The position numbers and the translations under genes were made by a program. Below the pieces are notes generated by a model. It was not told where the DNA came from. It made no database searches and saw only the letters and a program-made list of their open reading frames with translations. From assembly GCA_963841905.1 (NCBI GenBank), contig CAWJEM010000022.1, positions 92,835-156,834 of the forward strand: DNA of 64,000 bases. The letters are read 5' to 3'. The stretch comes from an uncultured Acidobacteriota bacterium. GTDB taxonomy: Bacteria; Acidobacteriota; Vicinamibacteria; Vicinamibacterales; UBA2999. Below are positions 27,818 to 32,693 of the stretch, one piece after another. Every line of letters starts with the position of its first letter. Positions within the stretch are counted from its first letter, which is position 1.

Positions 27818-29008
27818 ATGTCGCTGTCCCGTCGGCGACTGTTTCAACGGTTCGGCTCGGCGCCCCTCAATGGAGAGTGGATCGCCGCGCGTGGCCGTGA
27901 GGCAGCCGTAGCCGAAGGTTCCCTGGAGTTCGCGCAGCAACAGCGCGCGGCCGCCAGTTCGAACGTCATTCGCATCGCCAGCAACGAGAACCCACTCGGC
28001 CCCGGGCAGCACGTGGTCGACATCATTGTCGGCAAGTTTCCCGAGGCTGGCCGTTATCCGTTCAATGCCCAGCAGCGCGAACCCGTGCTGGTCAAGGCGC
28101 TGGCCAGCAAATACAGTGTGAGCGACAACCAGATTGCGTTGGGCCCGGGCTCCGGTGAGATTCTCTCGAATTCGGTACGTGCCTTCACCTCGCCGAGCAA
28201 ACCGCTGGCGACGGCTTGGCCGACCTTCGAGAACCCGCGCGACACGGCCCGCAAGATTGGGACCGAAGTGCGTGCGATAGACCTCGATGCCAACTTGCGA
28301 ATCAACATCGACAAGCTCGTCGAGGCATCCAAGGGTGCGGGTCTCGTTTTCTTCTGCAACCCCAACAACCCGACTGCAACGGTTCACGGTGCGCCGGCAG
28401 TTGCCGATTTCGTCAAGCGGGTGCGTGCCGCGTCACCGGAGACGGTCATTCTGATCGACGAGGCGTATCACGACTACGTCACGGATCCGGCGTACAAGAC
28501 GGCAATGGACATCGCCAAGAGCACGCCCAACGTCTTCGTGGCCCGAACCTTCTCGAAGGCGTACGGCATGGCGGGTCTGCGAGTGGGCTACGCCGTTGGC
28601 GATGCCGAAGTGATCAAACGGCTGAACGAGTTCCGGATGCCGTACGCGGTGAACCTGCCAGCAATTGCTGCCGCGACCGGCGCGCTCGCCAATCAGAAGC
28701 ACATCGACGAGGAGCGCGGTCGCAACACGTCGGTGAAAACGTTCACCATCAAGGCATTCGAACAGATGGGGTTCAAGGCGACCGATTCGCAGACCAACTT
28801 CATCTTCGTCAACATCAACCGTCCCGCCGCGGCCTTCCGCGACGCTTGCCGTGAGGCGGGCGTAATGGTCGGACGCGACTTCCCGCCCTACGAGAAGACC
28901 CACTGCCGCATCTCCATCGGCACCCAGCAGGAGATGGAGCGCGCGGTCGGCGTCTTCAAGAAGGTCCTGGCAGCCAGCACGAGCACGGCCAACCAGGGGC
29001 GGCAGTAA
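27818..29008 (+). CDS. HisC-like class-II PLP aminotransferase with an N-terminal RR motif
   Basis: MSLSRRRLFQRFGS...IRIASNENPLGPG...FFCNPNNPTATV...LIDEAYHDY...RTFSKAYGMAGLRVGYA. AAGGAGGA RBS. Confidence 0.85.
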   Translation: MSLSRRRLFQRFGSAPLNGEWIAARGREAAVAEGSLEFAQQQRAAASSNVIRIASNENPLGPGQHVVDIIVGKFPEAGRYPFNAQQREPVLVKALASKYSVSDNQIALGPGSGEILSNSVRAFTSPSKPLATAWPTFENPRDTARKIGTEVRAIDLDANLRINIDKLVEASKGAGLVFFCNPNNPTATVHGAPAVADFVKRVRAASPETVILIDEAYHDYVTDPAYKTAMDIAKSTPNVFVARTFSKAYGMAGLRVGYAVGDAEVIKRLNEFRMPYAVNLPAIAAATGALANQKHIDEERGRNTSVKTFTIKAFEQMGFKATDSQTNFIFVNINRPAAAFRDACREAGVMVGRDFPPYEKTHCRISIGTQQEMERAVGVFKKVLAASTSTANQGRQ

Positions 29009-29041
29009 CAGGGATTTGAGAAGGTGAAGGAGGATTCCGTT

Positions 29042-30202
29042 ATGTCGCTGTCGCGACGTCGATTCGTTCAAACTGTGGGCGCGGGCGCTGCCGGGTTCTG
29101 GGTGGCGGGCCGCGGTCGCGAAGCCGGTCTCTTCGACCTGGGCTTCGACGCGCTGCACGCGCAGACCAGCTCGCCGATCATCCTGGCGAGCAACGAGAAC
29201 CCGCTCGGCCCCGGCCGGGCGGTGCTCGACGCCGTGCGCGCCGGATTCGGTGAGCTCGGCCGGTATCAGTTCGCCACGGCCGCCGAAGTCACCGAGCTCG
29301 TGGCCAAGAAGCACGGCATCAAGCCGGAAAACGTTTTGCTTGGCTCGGGCTCGACCCAGATCCTCCGCAGCACGACCCACGTGTTCTGCTCCAAGACCGC
29401 ACCGCTCATCGCGCCGATTCCGGCCTACGAAGAGTGTGCGGGGTATGCGGCGCTCATGGGCTATCCGGTCCGCACCGTGAAGCTCACCCCGCCGCCCGAG
29501 CTCAAGATGGATGTGGCCGCCATTCTCGACGCCGCCAAGGGCGGCGGAATGGTGTTCGCCTGCAACCCGAACAACCCGGTCGCCACGGCCGTCGATGGCA
29601 AGACGTCCCGGGACTTCATCGCCGCGCTCGCCAAGGTCTCGCCGAACACGACCACGCTCGTCGACGAAGCCTACTTCGAATACGCGACGATGCCTGGTTA
29701 CGAGACGATGATCCCGCTGGCGGTCGAGAACCCGCGCGTGGTCGTCGCCCGCACGTTCTCCAAGGCTTTCGGTATGGCCGGCTTGCGCATTGGCTACGCC
29801 ATCGGCCATCGCGACTCAATCGCGAAGCTCCGTGCGTGGGATGCCGACGGCGCCATCAACGTCCTCGGGCTCAGCGCGGCTCGTGCCGCGTTGACTCAGG
29901 ATCCCAACATCCTGAAGAACGAGAGCAAGCGCAACACCGAGGCTCGTGCGTTTACCGCCAAGTGGTTCAAGGATCACGGCTACACGCCGACCGATTCGCA
30001 GACCAACTTCCTGTTCGTGGACATCAAGCGTCCGGCGCGCGGCTTCCGTGAAGCCTGTGCCAAGCAGGGCATCCTCGTGGGCCGCGACTTCCCGCCCTAC
30101 GAGAAGACGCACTGCCGCATCTCCATCAGCACGATGGAGGACATGCAGAAGGCCGTGAAGGTGTTCGAAGCTGCGCTCGCCGTCCCCGCGCAGGCGGCGT
30201 AG
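29042..30202 (+). CDS. HisC-like class-II PLP aminotransferase with a twin-arginine signal (paralogue of the upstream gene)
   Basis: MSLSRRRFVQTVGAGAAGFWVAG...ILASNENPLGPG...FACNPNNPVAT...LVDEAYFEY...RTFSKAFGMAGLRIGYA. ATG 29042 sits behind AAGGAGGA; the track ORF starts at 29024. Confidence 0.85.
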   Translation: MSLSRRRFVQTVGAGAAGFWVAGRGREAGLFDLGFDALHAQTSSPIILASNENPLGPGRAVLDAVRAGFGELGRYQFATAAEVTELVAKKHGIKPENVLLGSGSTQILRSTTHVFCSKTAPLIAPIPAYEECAGYAALMGYPVRTVKLTPPPELKMDVAAILDAAKGGGMVFACNPNNPVATAVDGKTSRDFIAALAKVSPNTTTLVDEAYFEYATMPGYETMIPLAVENPRVVVARTFSKAFGMAGLRIGYAIGHRDSIAKLRAWDADGAINVLGLSAARAALTQDPNILKNESKRNTEARAFTAKWFKDHGYTPTDSQTNFLFVDIKRPARGFREACAKQGILVGRDFPPYEKTHCRISISTMEDMQKAVKVFEAALAVPAQAA

Positions 30203-30218
30203 ACGACGAACGGTGTTA

Positions 30219-31203: not shown

Positions 31204-31362
31204 CGGTCCACGGTCCACGGTCCACGGTCCACGGTCTAACGGCCTAGGTCCACGGCCAACGGTCCACGCCAACGGTCCACGGTGGGCGCTAGCTGGCTGG
31301 TTGCCCTTCGACAACTGGAAACTGATCACTGCCGTAGACTGTGGACCGTAGGCCGTAGGCCT
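31203..31362. repeat. Heptamer array hairpin, GGTCCAC family (about 11 left units, about 4 right units)
   Basis: cggtcca x4 cggtcta acggcct aggtcca cggccaa cggtcca ... spacer ... gccgtag actgtgg accgtag gccgtag gcc. Runs from the stop codon to 6 nt before the permease ATG. Confidence 0.9.
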
Positions 31363-31367
31363 CTACG

Positions 31368-32693
31368 ATGTCATCCACCACTCTGACCCGAGCCATCGGT
31401 CTCCCTCAGGCCACCGCGATCGTCGTCGGCATCATCATCGGTGCCTCGGTCTTCGTGCAGGCGTCCGAGATCACGGCGCGCGTGCCGTCGTTGTGGGGCG
31501 TCACGCTGGCGTGGGTCACCGCGGGACTGCTGACGATGGGCGGGGCGCTCGTCTGTGCTGAGCTGTCATCGGCGATGCCACGAACCGGCGGCGTCTATGT
31601 GTTCCTGAAAGAGGCGTTTTCGCCGGCGCTCGGCTTCCTGTGGGGCTGGGCGATGTTCTGGAGCATGCACACCGGCATCGCAGCGGCGATCGCCACGGTG
31701 TTTGCGCGCTACGCCGGCTACTTCGTGCCGATGGGCGATGCCGCGCTGCGAGCGACGGCGGCGGGAGCGATCGTCGTCCTCTCGGTTGTCAACTATCTCG
31801 GTGTCCGGTTCGGCAGCGGAGTGCAGACGGCCTTCACGATCGTGAAAGTCGTTGCGGTGGCGGCCATCATCGCTGCCGGAGCGCTCCTTGATCCCGCCGG
31901 GACATCGCCGGTTGGCGCGGCTGCGGGGCCGCCCGACTACGGCGGCGGTGACTTCCTGCTTGCGGTTGGCGCCGGGCTGTTTGCCTTTGGCGGTTGGCAC
32001 ATGGTCACCTACACCGCCGAAGAGACCAAGGATCCAGAACGTACGATTCCCAGGTCTCTGGTGTACGGCACCATCATCGTGACGCTCTGCTATGTCGGAT
32101 TGAATATCGTTTATCTGTCGGTGCTGTCGATTGAGCGCGTGATCGCGTCCTCGCGCGTGGCCGCGGATACGTTCGAGGCGCTCGTGGGTCCCGTCGGTGG
32201 GAGCCTGGTGTCGGGACTGGTCATGTTCTCGGCGTTCGGGGCGCTGAACGGCGTCATCCTGGCCGGCCCGCGCGTCTACTACTCGATGGCGCAGGATGGC
32301 CTGCTGTTCAAGTGGGCGGCGGCGATTCACCCGACGTATCGAACACCTGGCCGCGCCATCCTGTTGCAAGGGTTGTGGGCGGTGGTCCTCGTCTTGACCG
32401 GCACTTATCGCGAGCTGTTCACACGGGTGATCTACACCGAGTGGATCTTCTTCGGCATGCTCGCACTCGGGGTCGTGGCCCTGCGCCGGCGGGCCGATTA
32501 CCGGCCGGCATGGCGGATGCCGGGAGTTCCCGTCATTCCCATCGTGTTTGCGTTGGTCTCGTTCGCAATTGCCGCGAACCAGATCCGCGTTGATCCGATC
32601 AACAGTGCCATCGGGCTGGTCCTGGTGATAATCGGGCTGCCGGTCTATTGGTGGTGGGTACGCGCGCGCCGCGTACCGCTTGGAGTGGCGTGA
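31368..32693 (+). CDS. APC-superfamily amino acid permease
   Basis: 441 aa, 12 TM. IVVGIIIGASVFVQ...CAELSSAMPRTGGVYVFLKEAF...GGWHMVTYTAEETKDPERTIPRSL. Confidence 0.9.
   Translation: MSSTTLTRAIGLPQATAIVVGIIIGASVFVQASEITARVPSLWGVTLAWVTAGLLTMGGALVCAELSSAMPRTGGVYVFLKEAFSPALGFLWGWAMFWSMHTGIAAAIATVFARYAGYFVPMGDAALRATAAGAIVVLSVVNYLGVRFGSGVQTAFTIVKVVAVAAIIAAGALLDPAGTSPVGAAAGPPDYGGGDFLLAVGAGLFAFGGWHMVTYTAEETKDPERTIPRSLVYGTIIVTLCYVGLNIVYLSVLSIERVIASSRVAADTFEALVGPVGGSLVSGLVMFSAFGALNGVILAGPRVYYSMAQDGLLFKWAAAIHPTYRTPGRAILLQGLWAVVLVLTGTYRELFTRVIYTEWIFFGMLALGVVALRRRADYRPAWRMPGVPVIPIVFALVSFAIAANQIRVDPINSAIGLVLVIIGLPVYWWWVRARRVPLGVA

What the first reader, a model, noticed from the sequence alone, without database searches (positions are those of the whole stretch)
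27818..32693. Tandem RR-signal HisC-like aminotransferases + Tat-signal PhnZ/MIOX-like HD-domain protein + APC permease
Two paralogous PLP aminotransferases carry all the HisC-family motifs (NENPLGP, CNPNNPT, DEAY, SKA(Y/F)GMAGLR). Both start with MSLSRRR(L/F)..., and the second has a textbook Tat signal (SRRRFVQTVGAGAAGFWVAG). The next gene starts MEIDRRAFIASLGGAAVV. It has the ligand pattern H-x24-HD-x10-H-x22-H plus a later D, as in HD-domain mixed-valent diiron oxygenases (the PhnZ, TmpB and MIOX families). An amino-acid permease follows. Export of folded PLP and diiron enzymes through Tat would place transamination and oxidative C-X cleavage chemistry outside the cytoplasm. I do not recognise this as a described pathway. 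Possible substrates (aminophosphonates, amino sugars or polyols) are speculation.
Basis: partly seen in the sequence, partly recalled or inferred. Interest (0 to 1): 0.6.

Follow-up and report, generated by a model that had tools for sequence, protein, structure and literature searches.

The report
Exported aminotransferase pair beside PhnZ-like enzyme
A soil acidobacterium carries an old pair of vitamin-B6 aminotransferases of the exported, PtaA-like kind next to an uncharacterised metal enzyme that resembles the rare PhnZ/TmpB oxygenases, but the two parts occur apart in most relatives, so they are not shown to form one pathway.

Summary
All four genes and every quoted motif are present.

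**Aminotransferases.** AT1 and AT2 are HisC-fold PLP aminotransferases but not the housekeeping HisC, which sits in a hisD-C-B-H operon elsewhere. Their best models are PRK09105 and PtaA, the known Tat-exported periplasmic transaminase, though neither cut-off is reached. Only AT2 has a complete Tat signal. AT1 keeps MSLSRRR but has a polar, charged stretch where the hydrophobic core should be. This asymmetric pair is old and widespread in the phylum. In distant genomes it sits next to cytochrome c and PQQ dehydrogenase genes, which fits a periplasmic role.

**HD protein.** It belongs to a large unnamed family found in at least 593 species genomes. All six diiron ligands are invariant. By sequence profile and by predicted fold, its only convincing solved relatives are TmpB and PhnZ. 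It lacks their YxxE loop and has no partner hydroxylase. Its Tat-like leader is borderline in this window.

**Linkage.** AT-AT-HD adjacency is confined to one family-level lineage.

The scan has reached the same reading on other DNA (e1-3192966, e1-3312655, e1-4700865). This is a new variant of known kinds, and no substrate is known.

The parts
27818..29008 (+). AT1: HisC-fold PLP aminotransferase (396 aa), the upstream member of the conserved pair. It keeps MSLSRRR, but the stretch where a hydrophobic core should lie is polar and charged (a half-signal).
   Evidence: ORF. (PF00155, 156.5 bits). (PRK09105 264 bits against cut-off 444; hisC 244 against 276.55; PtaA 239 against 500). (no TIGR01409 hit). 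(orthologue N-termini carry E, R, D and P after the RRR). (motifs, Shine-Dalgarno).
29042..30202 (+). AT2: HisC-fold PLP aminotransferase (386 aa), the downstream member of the pair, with a complete Tat-type signal (SRRRFVQTVGAGAAGFWVAG).
   Evidence: PRK09105 255.7 bits, with the match covering residues 2-380 including the leader; PtaA 226 bits. (TIGR01409 16.7 bits, equal to the cut-off). (best solved relative 3LY1, E 9e-42). (the AT2-type clade has 100/99 support across six families).
30219..30262 (+). GC-rich 16-bp hairpin followed by GUUUCGUUU, directly after the AT2 stop codon. It may act as a terminator or attenuator between AT2 and the HD gene.
   Evidence: region MFE -107 kcal/mol, z = -6.9. 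The consensus terminator scan did not call it because the U-tail is interrupted.
30269..30367 (+). Long hairpin built from GGYCCAC-type heptamer repeats, directly upstream of the HD ribosome-binding site.
30391..30453 (+). Tat-like leader of the HD protein (residues 1-21: MEIDRRAFIASLGGAAVVDAM). It is separable from the mature protein, because other subfamilies start at the equivalent of Met21.
   Evidence: conservation. (length of the uncharged run across 90 homologues). (a deep-branching member scores 16.3 bits on TIGR01409; main-clade leaders give no hit). (leaderless subfamilies).
30391..31203 (+). HD-domain protein (270 aa) of a large unnamed family. It has the six-ligand dinuclear site H105, H129, D130, H140, H163, D219 and is PhnZ/TmpB-like.
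   Evidence: Pfam HD 21.4 bits, cut-off 22. (TIGR03276 26.6 bits, NF049941 21.6 bits). (profile against PDB: TmpB 1.2e-6, PhnZ about 1e-5). (invariant residues). (AF2 pLDDT 88.5). (Foldseek top 10 are all TmpB or PhnZ).
31203..31362 (+). Heptamer-repeat array filling the gap between the HD gene and the permease gene.
Evidence: I did not analyse it further.
31368..32693 (+). APC-superfamily amino-acid permease (441 aa). It follows the HD gene only in the closest relatives.
   Evidence: PF13520, 165.7 bits. (TIGR00911 220.9 bits and FrlA 172 bits, both far below cut-off). (present after the HD gene in L009, L010/L030, L013 and L029, and replaced by another gene in L031-L038).

Best explanation
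The window holds two separate modules that have come to lie side by side in one lineage of Vicinamibacterales.

**Module 1: an old pair of PtaA/PRK09105-like PLP aminotransferases.** AT2 is loaded with PLP in the cytoplasm and exported folded through Tat to work in the periplasm. This step is inferred from its signal, from the PtaA precedent and from periplasmic neighbours in other genomes. AT1 cannot be targeted on its own. Because enzymes of this fold are obligate dimers, AT1 most likely travels as a heterodimer with AT2 (hitchhiking). This step is inferred and not shown. The pair would transaminate an unknown periplasmic amine or amino acid.

**Module 2: an HD-domain enzyme of a large uncharacterised family related to PhnZ and TmpB.** It has a complete dinuclear His4Asp2 site. 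It most likely uses a diiron centre and O2 to cleave a C-C or C-X bond next to a hydroxyl group in an anionic substrate (inferred from homology). It is probably, but not certainly, also Tat-exported.

**Permease.** The APC permease is a variable neighbour.

No evidence requires the aminotransferases and the HD enzyme to act on the same compound.
For: **Aminotransferases.**
- The best family models are PRK09105 and PtaA, and the PRK09105 match extends over the leader.
- PtaA is an experimentally shown Tat-exported PLP transaminase (PMC6206403; PMC13673990).
- AT2's N-terminus reaches the TIGR01409 cut-off. An AT2-type leader from a distant genome scores 20.9 bits.
- TatC is present.
- The housekeeping hisC lies in a hisD-hisC-hisB-hisH cluster on another contig.
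- A third paralogue has a clear Tat signal with a VFA-Q cleavage motif.
- Tandem pairs occur in many of the 55 of 401 phylum genomes that hold an AT1 relative.
- Downstream genes form one clade with 100/99 support across six families, so the duplication is old.
- The asymmetry recurs: 12 of 14 upstream genes carry charged residues in the core position, while the MSLSRR motif is retained.
- Distant pairs are followed by cytochrome c and PQQ dehydrogenase genes, both periplasmic.

**HD protein.**
- At least 6991 metagenomic relatives were found, and 593 species genomes encode a relative.
- The six ligands are invariant in 74 sequences.
- The spacing x23/x22 is identical to TmpB.
- Profile hits in the PDB are only TmpB and PhnZ.
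- The AF2 model has pLDDT 88.5. Its ten best structural matches are all TmpB or PhnZ with probability 1.0. Hydrolases start at E > 0.1.
- Leader: 50 of 90 homologues have at least 13 uncharged residues after the RR. Six of the 8 homologues with a charged core have also lost the second Arg.
- Deep-branching members have canonical Tat signals with AxA sites. Other subfamilies start at Met21 without any leader.

**Independence of the modules.**
Against: - No localisation, cofactor or activity data exist for any of these proteins.
- None of the curated family cut-offs (hisC, PRK09105, PtaA, PhnZ, TmpB, Pfam HD) is reached.
- The HD leader in this window has only 12 uncharged residues before an Asp, no AxA cleavage site, and no TIGR01409 hit.
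- AF2 gives the HD leader a high pLDDT (84-88), which is unusual for a cleaved signal.
- A His4Asp2 site is also used by dinuclear HD hydrolases, and sequence alone cannot separate the two chemistries (PMC8177086).
- Within the f1 lineage the three genes are tightly spaced and co-directional in at least 11 species, so a lineage-specific functional link is not excluded.
- The AT1-AT2 heterodimer is pure inference.
Confidence: 0.6

Rival explanations
1. AT1, AT2, the HD oxygenase and the APC permease form one periplasmic catabolic route: transamination, then oxidative C-X cleavage of one substrate, with the product imported by the permease.
For: - The genes are co-directional, and AT1-AT2-HD order is kept in 12 species-level loci. 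Intergenic gaps are short in relatives, for example roughly 40-50 nt between AT2 and HD in L031.
- The permease follows the HD gene in the closest relatives.
- 22 of 28 genomes with a full-length HD gene also hold an AT1 relative, by my own tally from the listings.
Against: - Adjacency is confined to family f1.
- G268 (same family) has the pair and the HD gene on different contigs. G188 has the pair but no HD gene.
- 68 of 80 HD loci have no aminotransferase nearby.
- No family dominates among the immediate HD neighbours.
- Distant pairs sit next to cytochrome c and PQQ dehydrogenase genes instead.
- In this window, hairpins separate AT2 from the HD gene and the HD gene from the permease.
- Flanking synteny (PPK) is conserved too, so the trio is no better conserved than its surroundings.
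- The co-occurrence is confounded by relatedness of the genomes.
Confidence: 0.15
2. The HD protein is a dinuclear phosphohydrolase or phosphodiesterase rather than an oxygenase. It may be cytoplasmic, with the RR motif a vestige or a structural element.
For: - Most HD-domain proteins are hydrolases, and some of them use the same H...HD...H...H...D set, including with iron (PMC8177086).
- The PhnZ/TmpB YxxE gating loop is missing (F and L at the aligned positions).
- No partner hydroxylase is found.
- The window's leader fails the 13-residue criterion and the TIGR01409 model.
- The leader has a high pLDDT.
- Several invariant Arg residues (R99, R167, R213, R240, R261) would suit a phosphate ester.
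Against: - No solved HD hydrolase matches by sequence profile (the next hit after PhnZ has E 0.25).
- None matches by fold either (E > 0.1 and probability at most about 0.5, against E 3e-5 and probability 1.0 for TmpB and PhnZ).
- Ligand spacing matches TmpB and PhnZ.
- The leader is separable, and it is canonical in deep-branching members.
Confidence: 0.2
3. AT1 and AT2 are cytoplasmic aminotransferase isozymes, and their RR N-termini are not functional export signals.
For: - AT1's leader is clearly not a signal peptide.
- Scores against hisC (244 and 210 bits) are not far below the cut-off of 276.55.
- AT2's TIGR01409 score only just reaches the cut-off.
Against: - A separate hisC lies in the his operon.
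- AT2-type leaders are uncharged, and their form is conserved across six families.
- PRK09105 and PtaA score higher than hisC for AT2, and for AT1 PRK09105 is the top model.
- PtaA shows that this subfamily is exported.
- Relatives have periplasmic neighbours, PQQ dehydrogenase and cytochrome c.
Confidence: 0.08

Closest known systems
PtaA, periplasmic transaminase A of Pseudomonas fluorescens and P. aeruginosa (NCBIfam NF051461), together with the PRK09105 subfamily (NF006580)
   Same: It is a HisC-fold PLP aminotransferase with an N-terminal twin-arginine signal, exported folded with its cofactor. These are the best-scoring curated models for AT1 and AT2, apart from hisC edging PtaA for AT1. 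The PRK09105 match covers AT2's leader (PMC6206403).
   Different: - Scores are about half the cut-offs (226-264 bits against 444 and 500).
- There is no pyoverdine context.
- Here the enzymes come as an old tandem pair in which the upstream member has lost the hydrophobic half of its signal.
- The substrate is unknown.
HisC, histidinol-phosphate aminotransferase (TIGR01141)
   Same: Same fold and the same motifs (NENPLGP, CNPNNPT, DEAY, SKAxGxAGLR with the PLP lysine). Solved relatives are mostly annotated HisC.
   Different: - Both proteins score below the cut-off (244 and 210 bits against 276.55).
- They carry N-terminal extensions of roughly 23-28 residues (my estimate from the hisC match offsets).
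- The genome has its own hisC inside a hisD-C-B-H cluster.
[quoted passage not shown]
   Same: - They are the only convincing solved relatives, by profile (E 1e-6 to 1e-5) and by fold (E 3e-5 to 2.5e-4, TM 0.51-0.60 normalised on the target).
- The H-x23-HD...H-x22-H...D ligand set is the same and is invariant in the family.
   Different: - Sequence identity is about 17-21%, and the curated models are missed by a wide margin (26.6 of 214.6 bits; 21.6 of 300 bits).
- The loop between the HD dyad and the third His is 11 residues shorter.
- The YxxE substrate-gating loop is absent.
- The protein has about 100 extra N-terminal residues, including a Tat-like leader.
- There is no adjacent Fe/2OG hydroxylase of the PhnY or TmpA type.
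MIOX (myo-inositol oxygenase, PDB 2HUO) and SmaX (mono-iron HD oxygenase, PMC12186529)
   Same: They belong to the same superfamily and carry out four-electron oxidative cleavage next to a hydroxyl group.
   Different: MIOX is only a weak structural match (E 1.6, rank 42). SmaX has lost the second metal site, whereas this family keeps all six ligands.

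Membership tests
Class I/II aminotransferase, fold type I (Pfam PF00155) | Match above the gathering score, with the PLP-lysine motif present | tested here: met
   AT1 scores 156.5 bits and AT2 149.8 bits against a cut-off of 19.7. SKAYGMAGLR and SKAFGMAGLR are present.
HisC, histidinol-phosphate transaminase (TIGR01141 equivalog) | Score at or above 276.55 bits | tested here: not met
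   AT1 scores 243.9 bits and AT2 210.1 bits.
HisC, histidinol-phosphate transaminase (TIGR01141 equivalog) | Being the genome's histidine-pathway copy | tested here: not met
   A separate hisC lies between hisD and hisB-hisH at G000:C11:209532-210554.
PtaA, pyoverdine biosynthesis transaminase (NF051461 equivalog) | Score at or above 500 bits | tested here: not met
   AT1 scores 239.2 bits and AT2 226.1 bits.
PtaA, pyoverdine biosynthesis transaminase (NF051461 equivalog) | Twin-arginine signal on a HisC-fold PLP enzyme | tested here: met
   Met for AT2 (TIGR01409 16.7 bits, equal to the cut-off; 16 uncharged residues after the RRR). Not met for AT1 (no hit; R and E within the core position).
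PtaA, pyoverdine biosynthesis transaminase (NF051461 equivalog) | Tat-dependent export with bound PLP, and action on a periplasmic substrate | not testable with these tools
   This needs fractionation or reporter fusions. The only indirect support is the presence of periplasmic neighbours (cytochrome c, PQQ dehydrogenase) next to distant pairs.
PRK09105 aminotransferase subfamily (NF006580) | Score at or above 444 bits | tested here: not met
   AT1 scores 264.1 bits and AT2 255.7 bits. This is the best model for both, and its match spans the N-terminal leader.
Tat signal peptide (TIGR01409 / Pfam PF10518) | RR motif plus an uncharged hydrophobic core, recognised by the model | tested here: inconclusive
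   - AT2 reaches the cut-off exactly.
- AT1 and the HD leader give no hit.
- The model is insensitive: a clear Tat signal on the third paralogue scores 14.7 bits and a Mo-enzyme control scores 13.9 bits.
- The HD leader has 12 uncharged residues here, but at least 13 in 50 of 90 homologues.
[quoted passage not shown] | H...HD...H...H...D six-ligand motif (PMC8177086) | tested here: met
   H105, H129, D130, H140, H163 and D219 are invariant in 74 sequences. The first four align with the TmpB ligands.
[quoted passage not shown] | Closest relatives are the oxygenases rather than the hydrolases | tested here: met
   Profile against PDB: TmpB 1.2e-6, PhnZ about 1e-5, next hit 0.25. Foldseek: the top 10 are all TmpB or PhnZ, and hydrolases have E > 0.1.
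[quoted passage not shown] | Fe(II)/Fe(III) cofactor and O2-dependent four-electron cleavage | not testable with these tools
   This needs metal analysis, EPR or Mossbauer spectroscopy, and activity assays.
PhnZ (TIGR03276) and TmpB (NF049941) | Score above the curated cut-off | tested here: not met
   26.6 bits against 214.6, and 21.6 bits against 300.
PhnZ (TIGR03276) and TmpB (NF049941) | YxxE substrate-gating loop upstream of the first His | tested here: not met
   In the PhnZ alignment, Y and E of YIGE align with F and L of DFFNLRF.
PhnZ (TIGR03276) and TmpB (NF049941) | Adjacent Fe/2OG hydroxylase (PhnY or TmpA) that makes the alpha-hydroxy substrate | tested here: not met
   None is present in the window. 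No TauD/PhyH-type family appears among the 25 families listed for the 111 immediate neighbours from the 80 species loci. Three loci have a Rieske oxygenase instead.
HD domain (Pfam PF01966) | Score at or above 22 bits | tested here: not met
   21.4 bits, just under the cut-off. Some homologues carry a precomputed PF01966 hit.
APC amino-acid permease (Pfam PF13520) | Match above the gathering score | tested here: met
   165.7 bits against a cut-off of 27. No equivalog cut-off is reached, so the substrate is unknown.

The most novel reading that the evidence does not exclude
The HD family would be the first extracytoplasmic HD-domain diiron oxygenase. It would be loaded with iron in the cytoplasm, exported folded through Tat, and would oxidatively cleave an as yet unknown anionic hydroxylated compound in the periplasm of many soil Acidobacteriota and Gemmatimonadota. 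Beside it, the aminotransferase pair would be a heterodimer in which one subunit with a full Tat signal carries a partner that keeps only the twin-arginine tag.
Probability: 0.3. Interest if true: 0.65.

Novelty: new variant of a known kind. Interest (0 to 1): 0.45.

Why it matters
**Rarity of the enzyme class.** A 2025 paper counted only three Fe-utilising HD-domain oxygenases (MIOX, PhnZ and TmpB) before adding SmaX (PMC12186529). All are treated as cytoplasmic.

**The HD family.** This family is large and strongly conserved, with 60-95% identity across families of a phylum and relatives in at least 593 species genomes. It keeps the complete diiron site, carries a Tat-like leader and has no name. 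If it is an exported oxygenase, it would open a new location and probably a new substrate class for this chemistry in abundant soil bacteria.

**The aminotransferase pair.** It adds to the evidence that periplasmic transamination, so far shown only for PtaA, is widespread. The conserved asymmetry, one full signal and one half-signal, gives a clean and testable case for co-export of a heterodimer through Tat.

**Practical point.** The gene cluster should not be annotated as one pathway, nor the aminotransferases as HisC.

Tried and rejected
1. A single-sequence AlphaFold run of the HD protein gave pLDDT 38.8 and was discarded. The run with a 74-sequence alignment was used instead.
2. TIGR01409 and PF10518 proved insensitive as a test of Tat signals. 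Clear signals (the third paralogue and a Mo-enzyme control) fall below the cut-off. A miss is therefore not counted as evidence of absence.
3. I tried to separate the aminotransferases from HisC by the phosphate-binding arginines (E. coli R322 and R335, recalled from memory). R335 aligns with a conserved Arg, and R322 can be aligned either way, so the result is inconclusive.
4. I looked for a conserved HD partner gene that might suggest a substrate. Clustering of neighbours in 80 loci and a Pfam scan of 111 immediate neighbours found no dominant family. There were only scattered PQQ dehydrogenase, TctC, PEBP and Rieske oxygenase genes.
5. The consensus terminator scan did not call the AT2-HD hairpin. 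Folding shows that it is real, but the U-tail is interrupted, so termination is uncertain.
6. The original PtaA paper (PMC5682972) is not held. PtaA facts are taken from the review PMC6206403.
8. A full-text search for any Tat-exported HD-domain diiron protein found nothing in the held library. This is not proof that none has been described.
9. MIOX as the closest relative is rejected (Foldseek E 1.6).

Full report
**1. What is in the sequence**

- AT1, 27818-29008, 396 aa
- AT2, 29042-30202, 386 aa
- the HD-domain protein, 30391-31203, 270 aa
- an APC permease, 31368-32693, 441 aa

Good Shine-Dalgarno sequences precede the ATG starts of AT1, AT2 and HD. Alternative upstream GTG starts for AT2 (29024) and HD (30337) lack one. 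Homologues of the HD protein start at MEIDRR.

The exact ligand spacing in the HD protein is H105-x23-H129 D130-x9-H140-x22-H163-x55-D219. AT1 and AT2 are 44% identical. GC content is even across the region.

**2. The aminotransferases**

Both match Pfam Aminotran_1_2. Their scores against the three closest NCBIfam models are below the curated cut-offs in every case:

| Model | AT1 (bits) | AT2 (bits) | Cut-off (bits) |
|---|---|---|---|
| PRK09105 subfamily (best model for both) | 264 | 256 | 444 |
| hisC | 244 | 210 | 276.55 |
| PtaA | 239 | 226 | 500 |

For AT2, the PRK09105 and PtaA matches start at residue 2, so they cover the leader.

PtaA is the 'periplasmic transaminase A' of fluorescent pseudomonads. 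It is a normal PLP transaminase that is carried through Tat together with its cofactor. It is also found in species that make no pyoverdine (PMC6206403). PLP is listed among the cofactors of Tat cargoes (PMC13673990). Periplasmic transamination by a HisC-like enzyme is therefore a described kind.

The genome's real hisC lies between hisD and hisB-hisH on another contig. A third paralogue on that contig has a clear Tat signal: SRRRFVGGLAAALGYVSAGTGLDVFA-Q. TatC is present.

**3. The two leaders differ**

AT2 has SRRRFVQTVGAGAAGFWVAG, with 16 uncharged residues after the RRR. It reaches the TIGR01409 cut-off exactly (16.7 bits). AT1 has RRRLFQRFGSAPLNGEWIAARG and gives no hit. Its orthologues carry E, R, D, H and P in the same stretch.

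The same asymmetry recurs in distant genomes. Of 14 upstream genes, 12 have charged residues where the hydrophobic core should be, yet MSLSRR is kept. The downstream genes have clean signals. One of these scores 20.9 bits on TIGR01409.

A maximum-likelihood tree puts the downstream genes of six families into one clade (100/99 support), with the upstream genes outside it. The pair is therefore old and co-inherited. AT1 relatives occur in 55 of 401 genomes sampled from the phylum, very often as tandem pairs or quartets.

Enzymes of this fold are obligate dimers. The simplest reading is a heterodimer in which the AT2-type subunit provides the targeting and AT1 is carried along. This is inference and nothing here shows it. 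Why the twin-arginine tag of AT1 stays conserved is unexplained.

In distant genomes the pair is followed by a cytochrome c and a PQQ dehydrogenase, or by an NHL-repeat protein with a signal peptide. These are periplasmic proteins, which fits a periplasmic role for the pair.

**4. The HD protein**

Family models barely see it:

| Model | Score (bits) | Cut-off (bits) |
|---|---|---|
| Pfam HD | 21.4 | 22 |
| PhnZ (TIGR03276) | 26.6 | 214.6 |
| TmpB (NF049941) | 21.6 | 300 |

It nevertheless belongs to a very large, strongly conserved and unnamed family.
- At least 6991 relatives were found among the candidates scored, all labelled 'hypothetical protein' or 'predicted HD phosphohydrolase'.
- 147 clusters at 50% identity have E below 1e-30.
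- 593 species genomes hold a relative. Most are Acidobacteriota: Vicinamibacterales, Bryobacterales and Terriglobia, including the cultured Tunturiibacter empetritectus. Gemmatimonadota and a few Proteobacteria also appear.

In 74 sequences the six ligands are invariant. So are D139, H206, H258 and five arginines: R99, R167, R213, R240 and R261.

A profile of the family hits only TmpB (1.2e-6) and PhnZ (about 1e-5) in the PDB. The next hit has E 0.25. The alignment places H105, H129/D130, H140 and H163 on the TmpB ligands, with identical x23 and x22 spacings and a middle loop that is 11 residues shorter. The 55 residues between H163 and D219 compare with 56 between the last two PhnZ ligands. 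Those PhnZ positions are from my memory of the PhnZ paper.

An AlphaFold model built on the 74-sequence alignment is confident (pLDDT 88.5, pTM 0.86). Its ten best structural matches are all TmpB or PhnZ chains, with E from 3e-5 to 2.5e-4, probability 1.0 and TM 0.51-0.60 normalised on the target. HD hydrolases begin at E > 0.1, and MIOX comes at rank 42 with E 1.6.

The family is therefore a distant sister of PhnZ and TmpB. It is not a member of either:
- The YxxE gating loop is replaced (F and L at the aligned positions).
- About 100 extra residues precede the core.
- No Fe/2OG hydroxylase partner appears in the window, and none appears among the families listed for the 111 immediate neighbours from the 80 species loci.

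A review of the superfamily stresses that nuclearity, metal and chemistry cannot be read from sequence alone, and that some hydrolases use iron and the same motif (PMC8177086). 'Oxygenase' is thus the best-supported guess, not a result.

**5. Is the HD protein exported?**

Evidence for export:
- The N-terminus (M-E/D-I-D-R-R-A-F-I/L-A-S-L-G-G...) fits the RRxFL consensus and is conserved.
- Fifty of 90 distinct homologues have at least 13 uncharged residues after the RR.
- Of the 8 homologues with charged residues in that stretch, 6 have also changed RR to RK. This would be expected if the two features work together as a signal. These cases are few and related to one another.
- The deepest-branching members have canonical Tat signals with AxA sites, for example MDRRKFLAAVGPGGAALLGVAQA-TG. 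That one scores 16.3 bits on TIGR01409.
- Other subfamilies start without any leader at the equivalent of Met21. The leader is therefore a separable module, as targeting signals are.

Evidence against export:
- In this window's clade the uncharged run is only 12 residues and ends in Asp or Glu.
- There is no AxA site, because Met occupies position -1.
- Main-clade leaders give no TIGR01409 hit. The model is insensitive, however: clear signals score 13.9 and 14.7 bits.
- AlphaFold gives residues 1-40 a pLDDT of 84-88. That is more typical of a structured segment than of a cleaved signal.

I put export at about 0.55-0.6.

**6. Are the genes one pathway?**

Adjacency is limited to one lineage.
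- Among 80 species-level loci holding an HD homologue, AT1-AT2-HD (or AT2-HD at a contig edge) occurs in 12. All 12 have HD identity of at least 72% to the window. Two loci at 71-73% and all 66 below that lack the aminotransferases (first seen).
- Among 401 genomes of the phylum, adjacency is seen only in family f1: G000, G168, G134, G288 and G307, and probably G098 across contig ends.
- In the same family, G268 has the pair and the HD gene on different contigs. G188 has the pair and no HD gene.
- The downstream gene also varies. It is the APC permease in the closest relatives and a 440-aa secreted protein in the sister branch.
- Upstream synteny (PPK) is conserved as well. The trio is therefore no better conserved than its surroundings.

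In this window, the 188-nt gap between AT2 and HD holds two structures. One is a 16-bp GC-rich hairpin followed by GUUUCGUUU. The other is a long hairpin made of heptamer repeats (z = -6.9). A similar repeat array fills the 164-nt gap between HD and the permease. In relatives these gaps are short.

HD-bearing genomes do tend to hold an AT1 relative as well. By my tally from the listings, this is 22 of 28. These genomes are related to one another, so the figure is weak evidence.

A lineage-specific link cannot be excluded, and I give it 0.15.

**7. Comparison, novelty and verdict**

The aminotransferases are new members of the PtaA/PRK09105 kind, and they have an interesting conserved half-signal partner. 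The HD protein represents a large unnamed family close to the very small group of HD-domain oxygenases. A 2025 paper counted three Fe-utilising HD-domain oxygenases before adding SmaX (PMC12186529). I found no report of a Tat-exported one in the held library.

The scan has already reached the same reading on other genomes: e1-3192966 for the trio, and e1-3312655 and e1-4700865 for the half-signal pair. My tests were run independently and agree with them.

Overall this is a new variant of known kinds, of moderate interest (0.45). The most valuable open question is whether the HD family is an exported diiron oxygenase, and on what substrate it acts.

Noticed in passing
window 30269-30367 and 31203-31362: The HD gene is bracketed on both sides by hairpins or arrays built from GGYCCAC-type heptamer repeats. 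In relatives the same gaps are short (roughly 40-130 nt). The repeats are therefore recent insertions into the intergenic regions of this genome.
   Followed up: partly
G000:C11:217921-219078 (L006:1483-2676): A third HisC-fold aminotransferase (397 aa, 33% identical to AT2) has a clear Tat signal and a VFA-Q cleavage motif. It carries NNENNWG in place of NENPLGP. It is unlinked to the pair.
   Followed up: partly
L109, L111, L112, L114, L119, L123 (aminotransferase pairs in other families of the phylum): Distant aminotransferase pairs are followed by a small cytochrome c (PF13442) and a PQQ dehydrogenase (PF01011, 632 bits), or by an NHL-repeat protein with a signal peptide. This may be a conserved periplasmic module of transaminase plus dehydrogenase.
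   Followed up: partly
L031:11026-12354 and orthologues in L032-L038 and L120: A 440-aa secreted protein with no Pfam match but a CxxCH motif (METCLACH) follows the HD gene in the sister branch, or follows the pair directly in G268. A Tat-signal Oxidored_molyb (SorA-like) gene lies next to it on the other strand.
   Followed up: no
window 30451-30453 (Met21 of the HD protein): A Met is strongly conserved at the junction between the leader and the acidic helix (..AAVxxM-xxEAKAEALEH..). Leaderless subfamilies start at about this position. An internal start giving a cytoplasmic isoform is conceivable.
   Followed up: no
window 30568-30600 (HD residues 60-70, TVRRGAGSLF): A second conserved RRG-x-G motif (R62 and R63 at least 90% conserved, G64 and G66 invariant) lies after the variable linker. 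It is modelled with confidence (pLDDT 84). Its role is unknown.
   Followed up: no
L083, L084, L105 (Bryobacterales): In three loci the HD gene is followed by a Rieske-type ring-hydroxylating oxygenase alpha subunit (PF00848 and PF00355). This could play the hydroxylase role that PhnY or TmpA plays for PhnZ or TmpB.
   Followed up: no
L002:6684-7895: In one metagenomic contig, an FMN-dependent alpha-hydroxy-acid dehydrogenase (PF01070) lies directly upstream of a 73-74% identical HD homologue. The same Pfam family turns up once among the immediate neighbours scanned.
   Followed up: no
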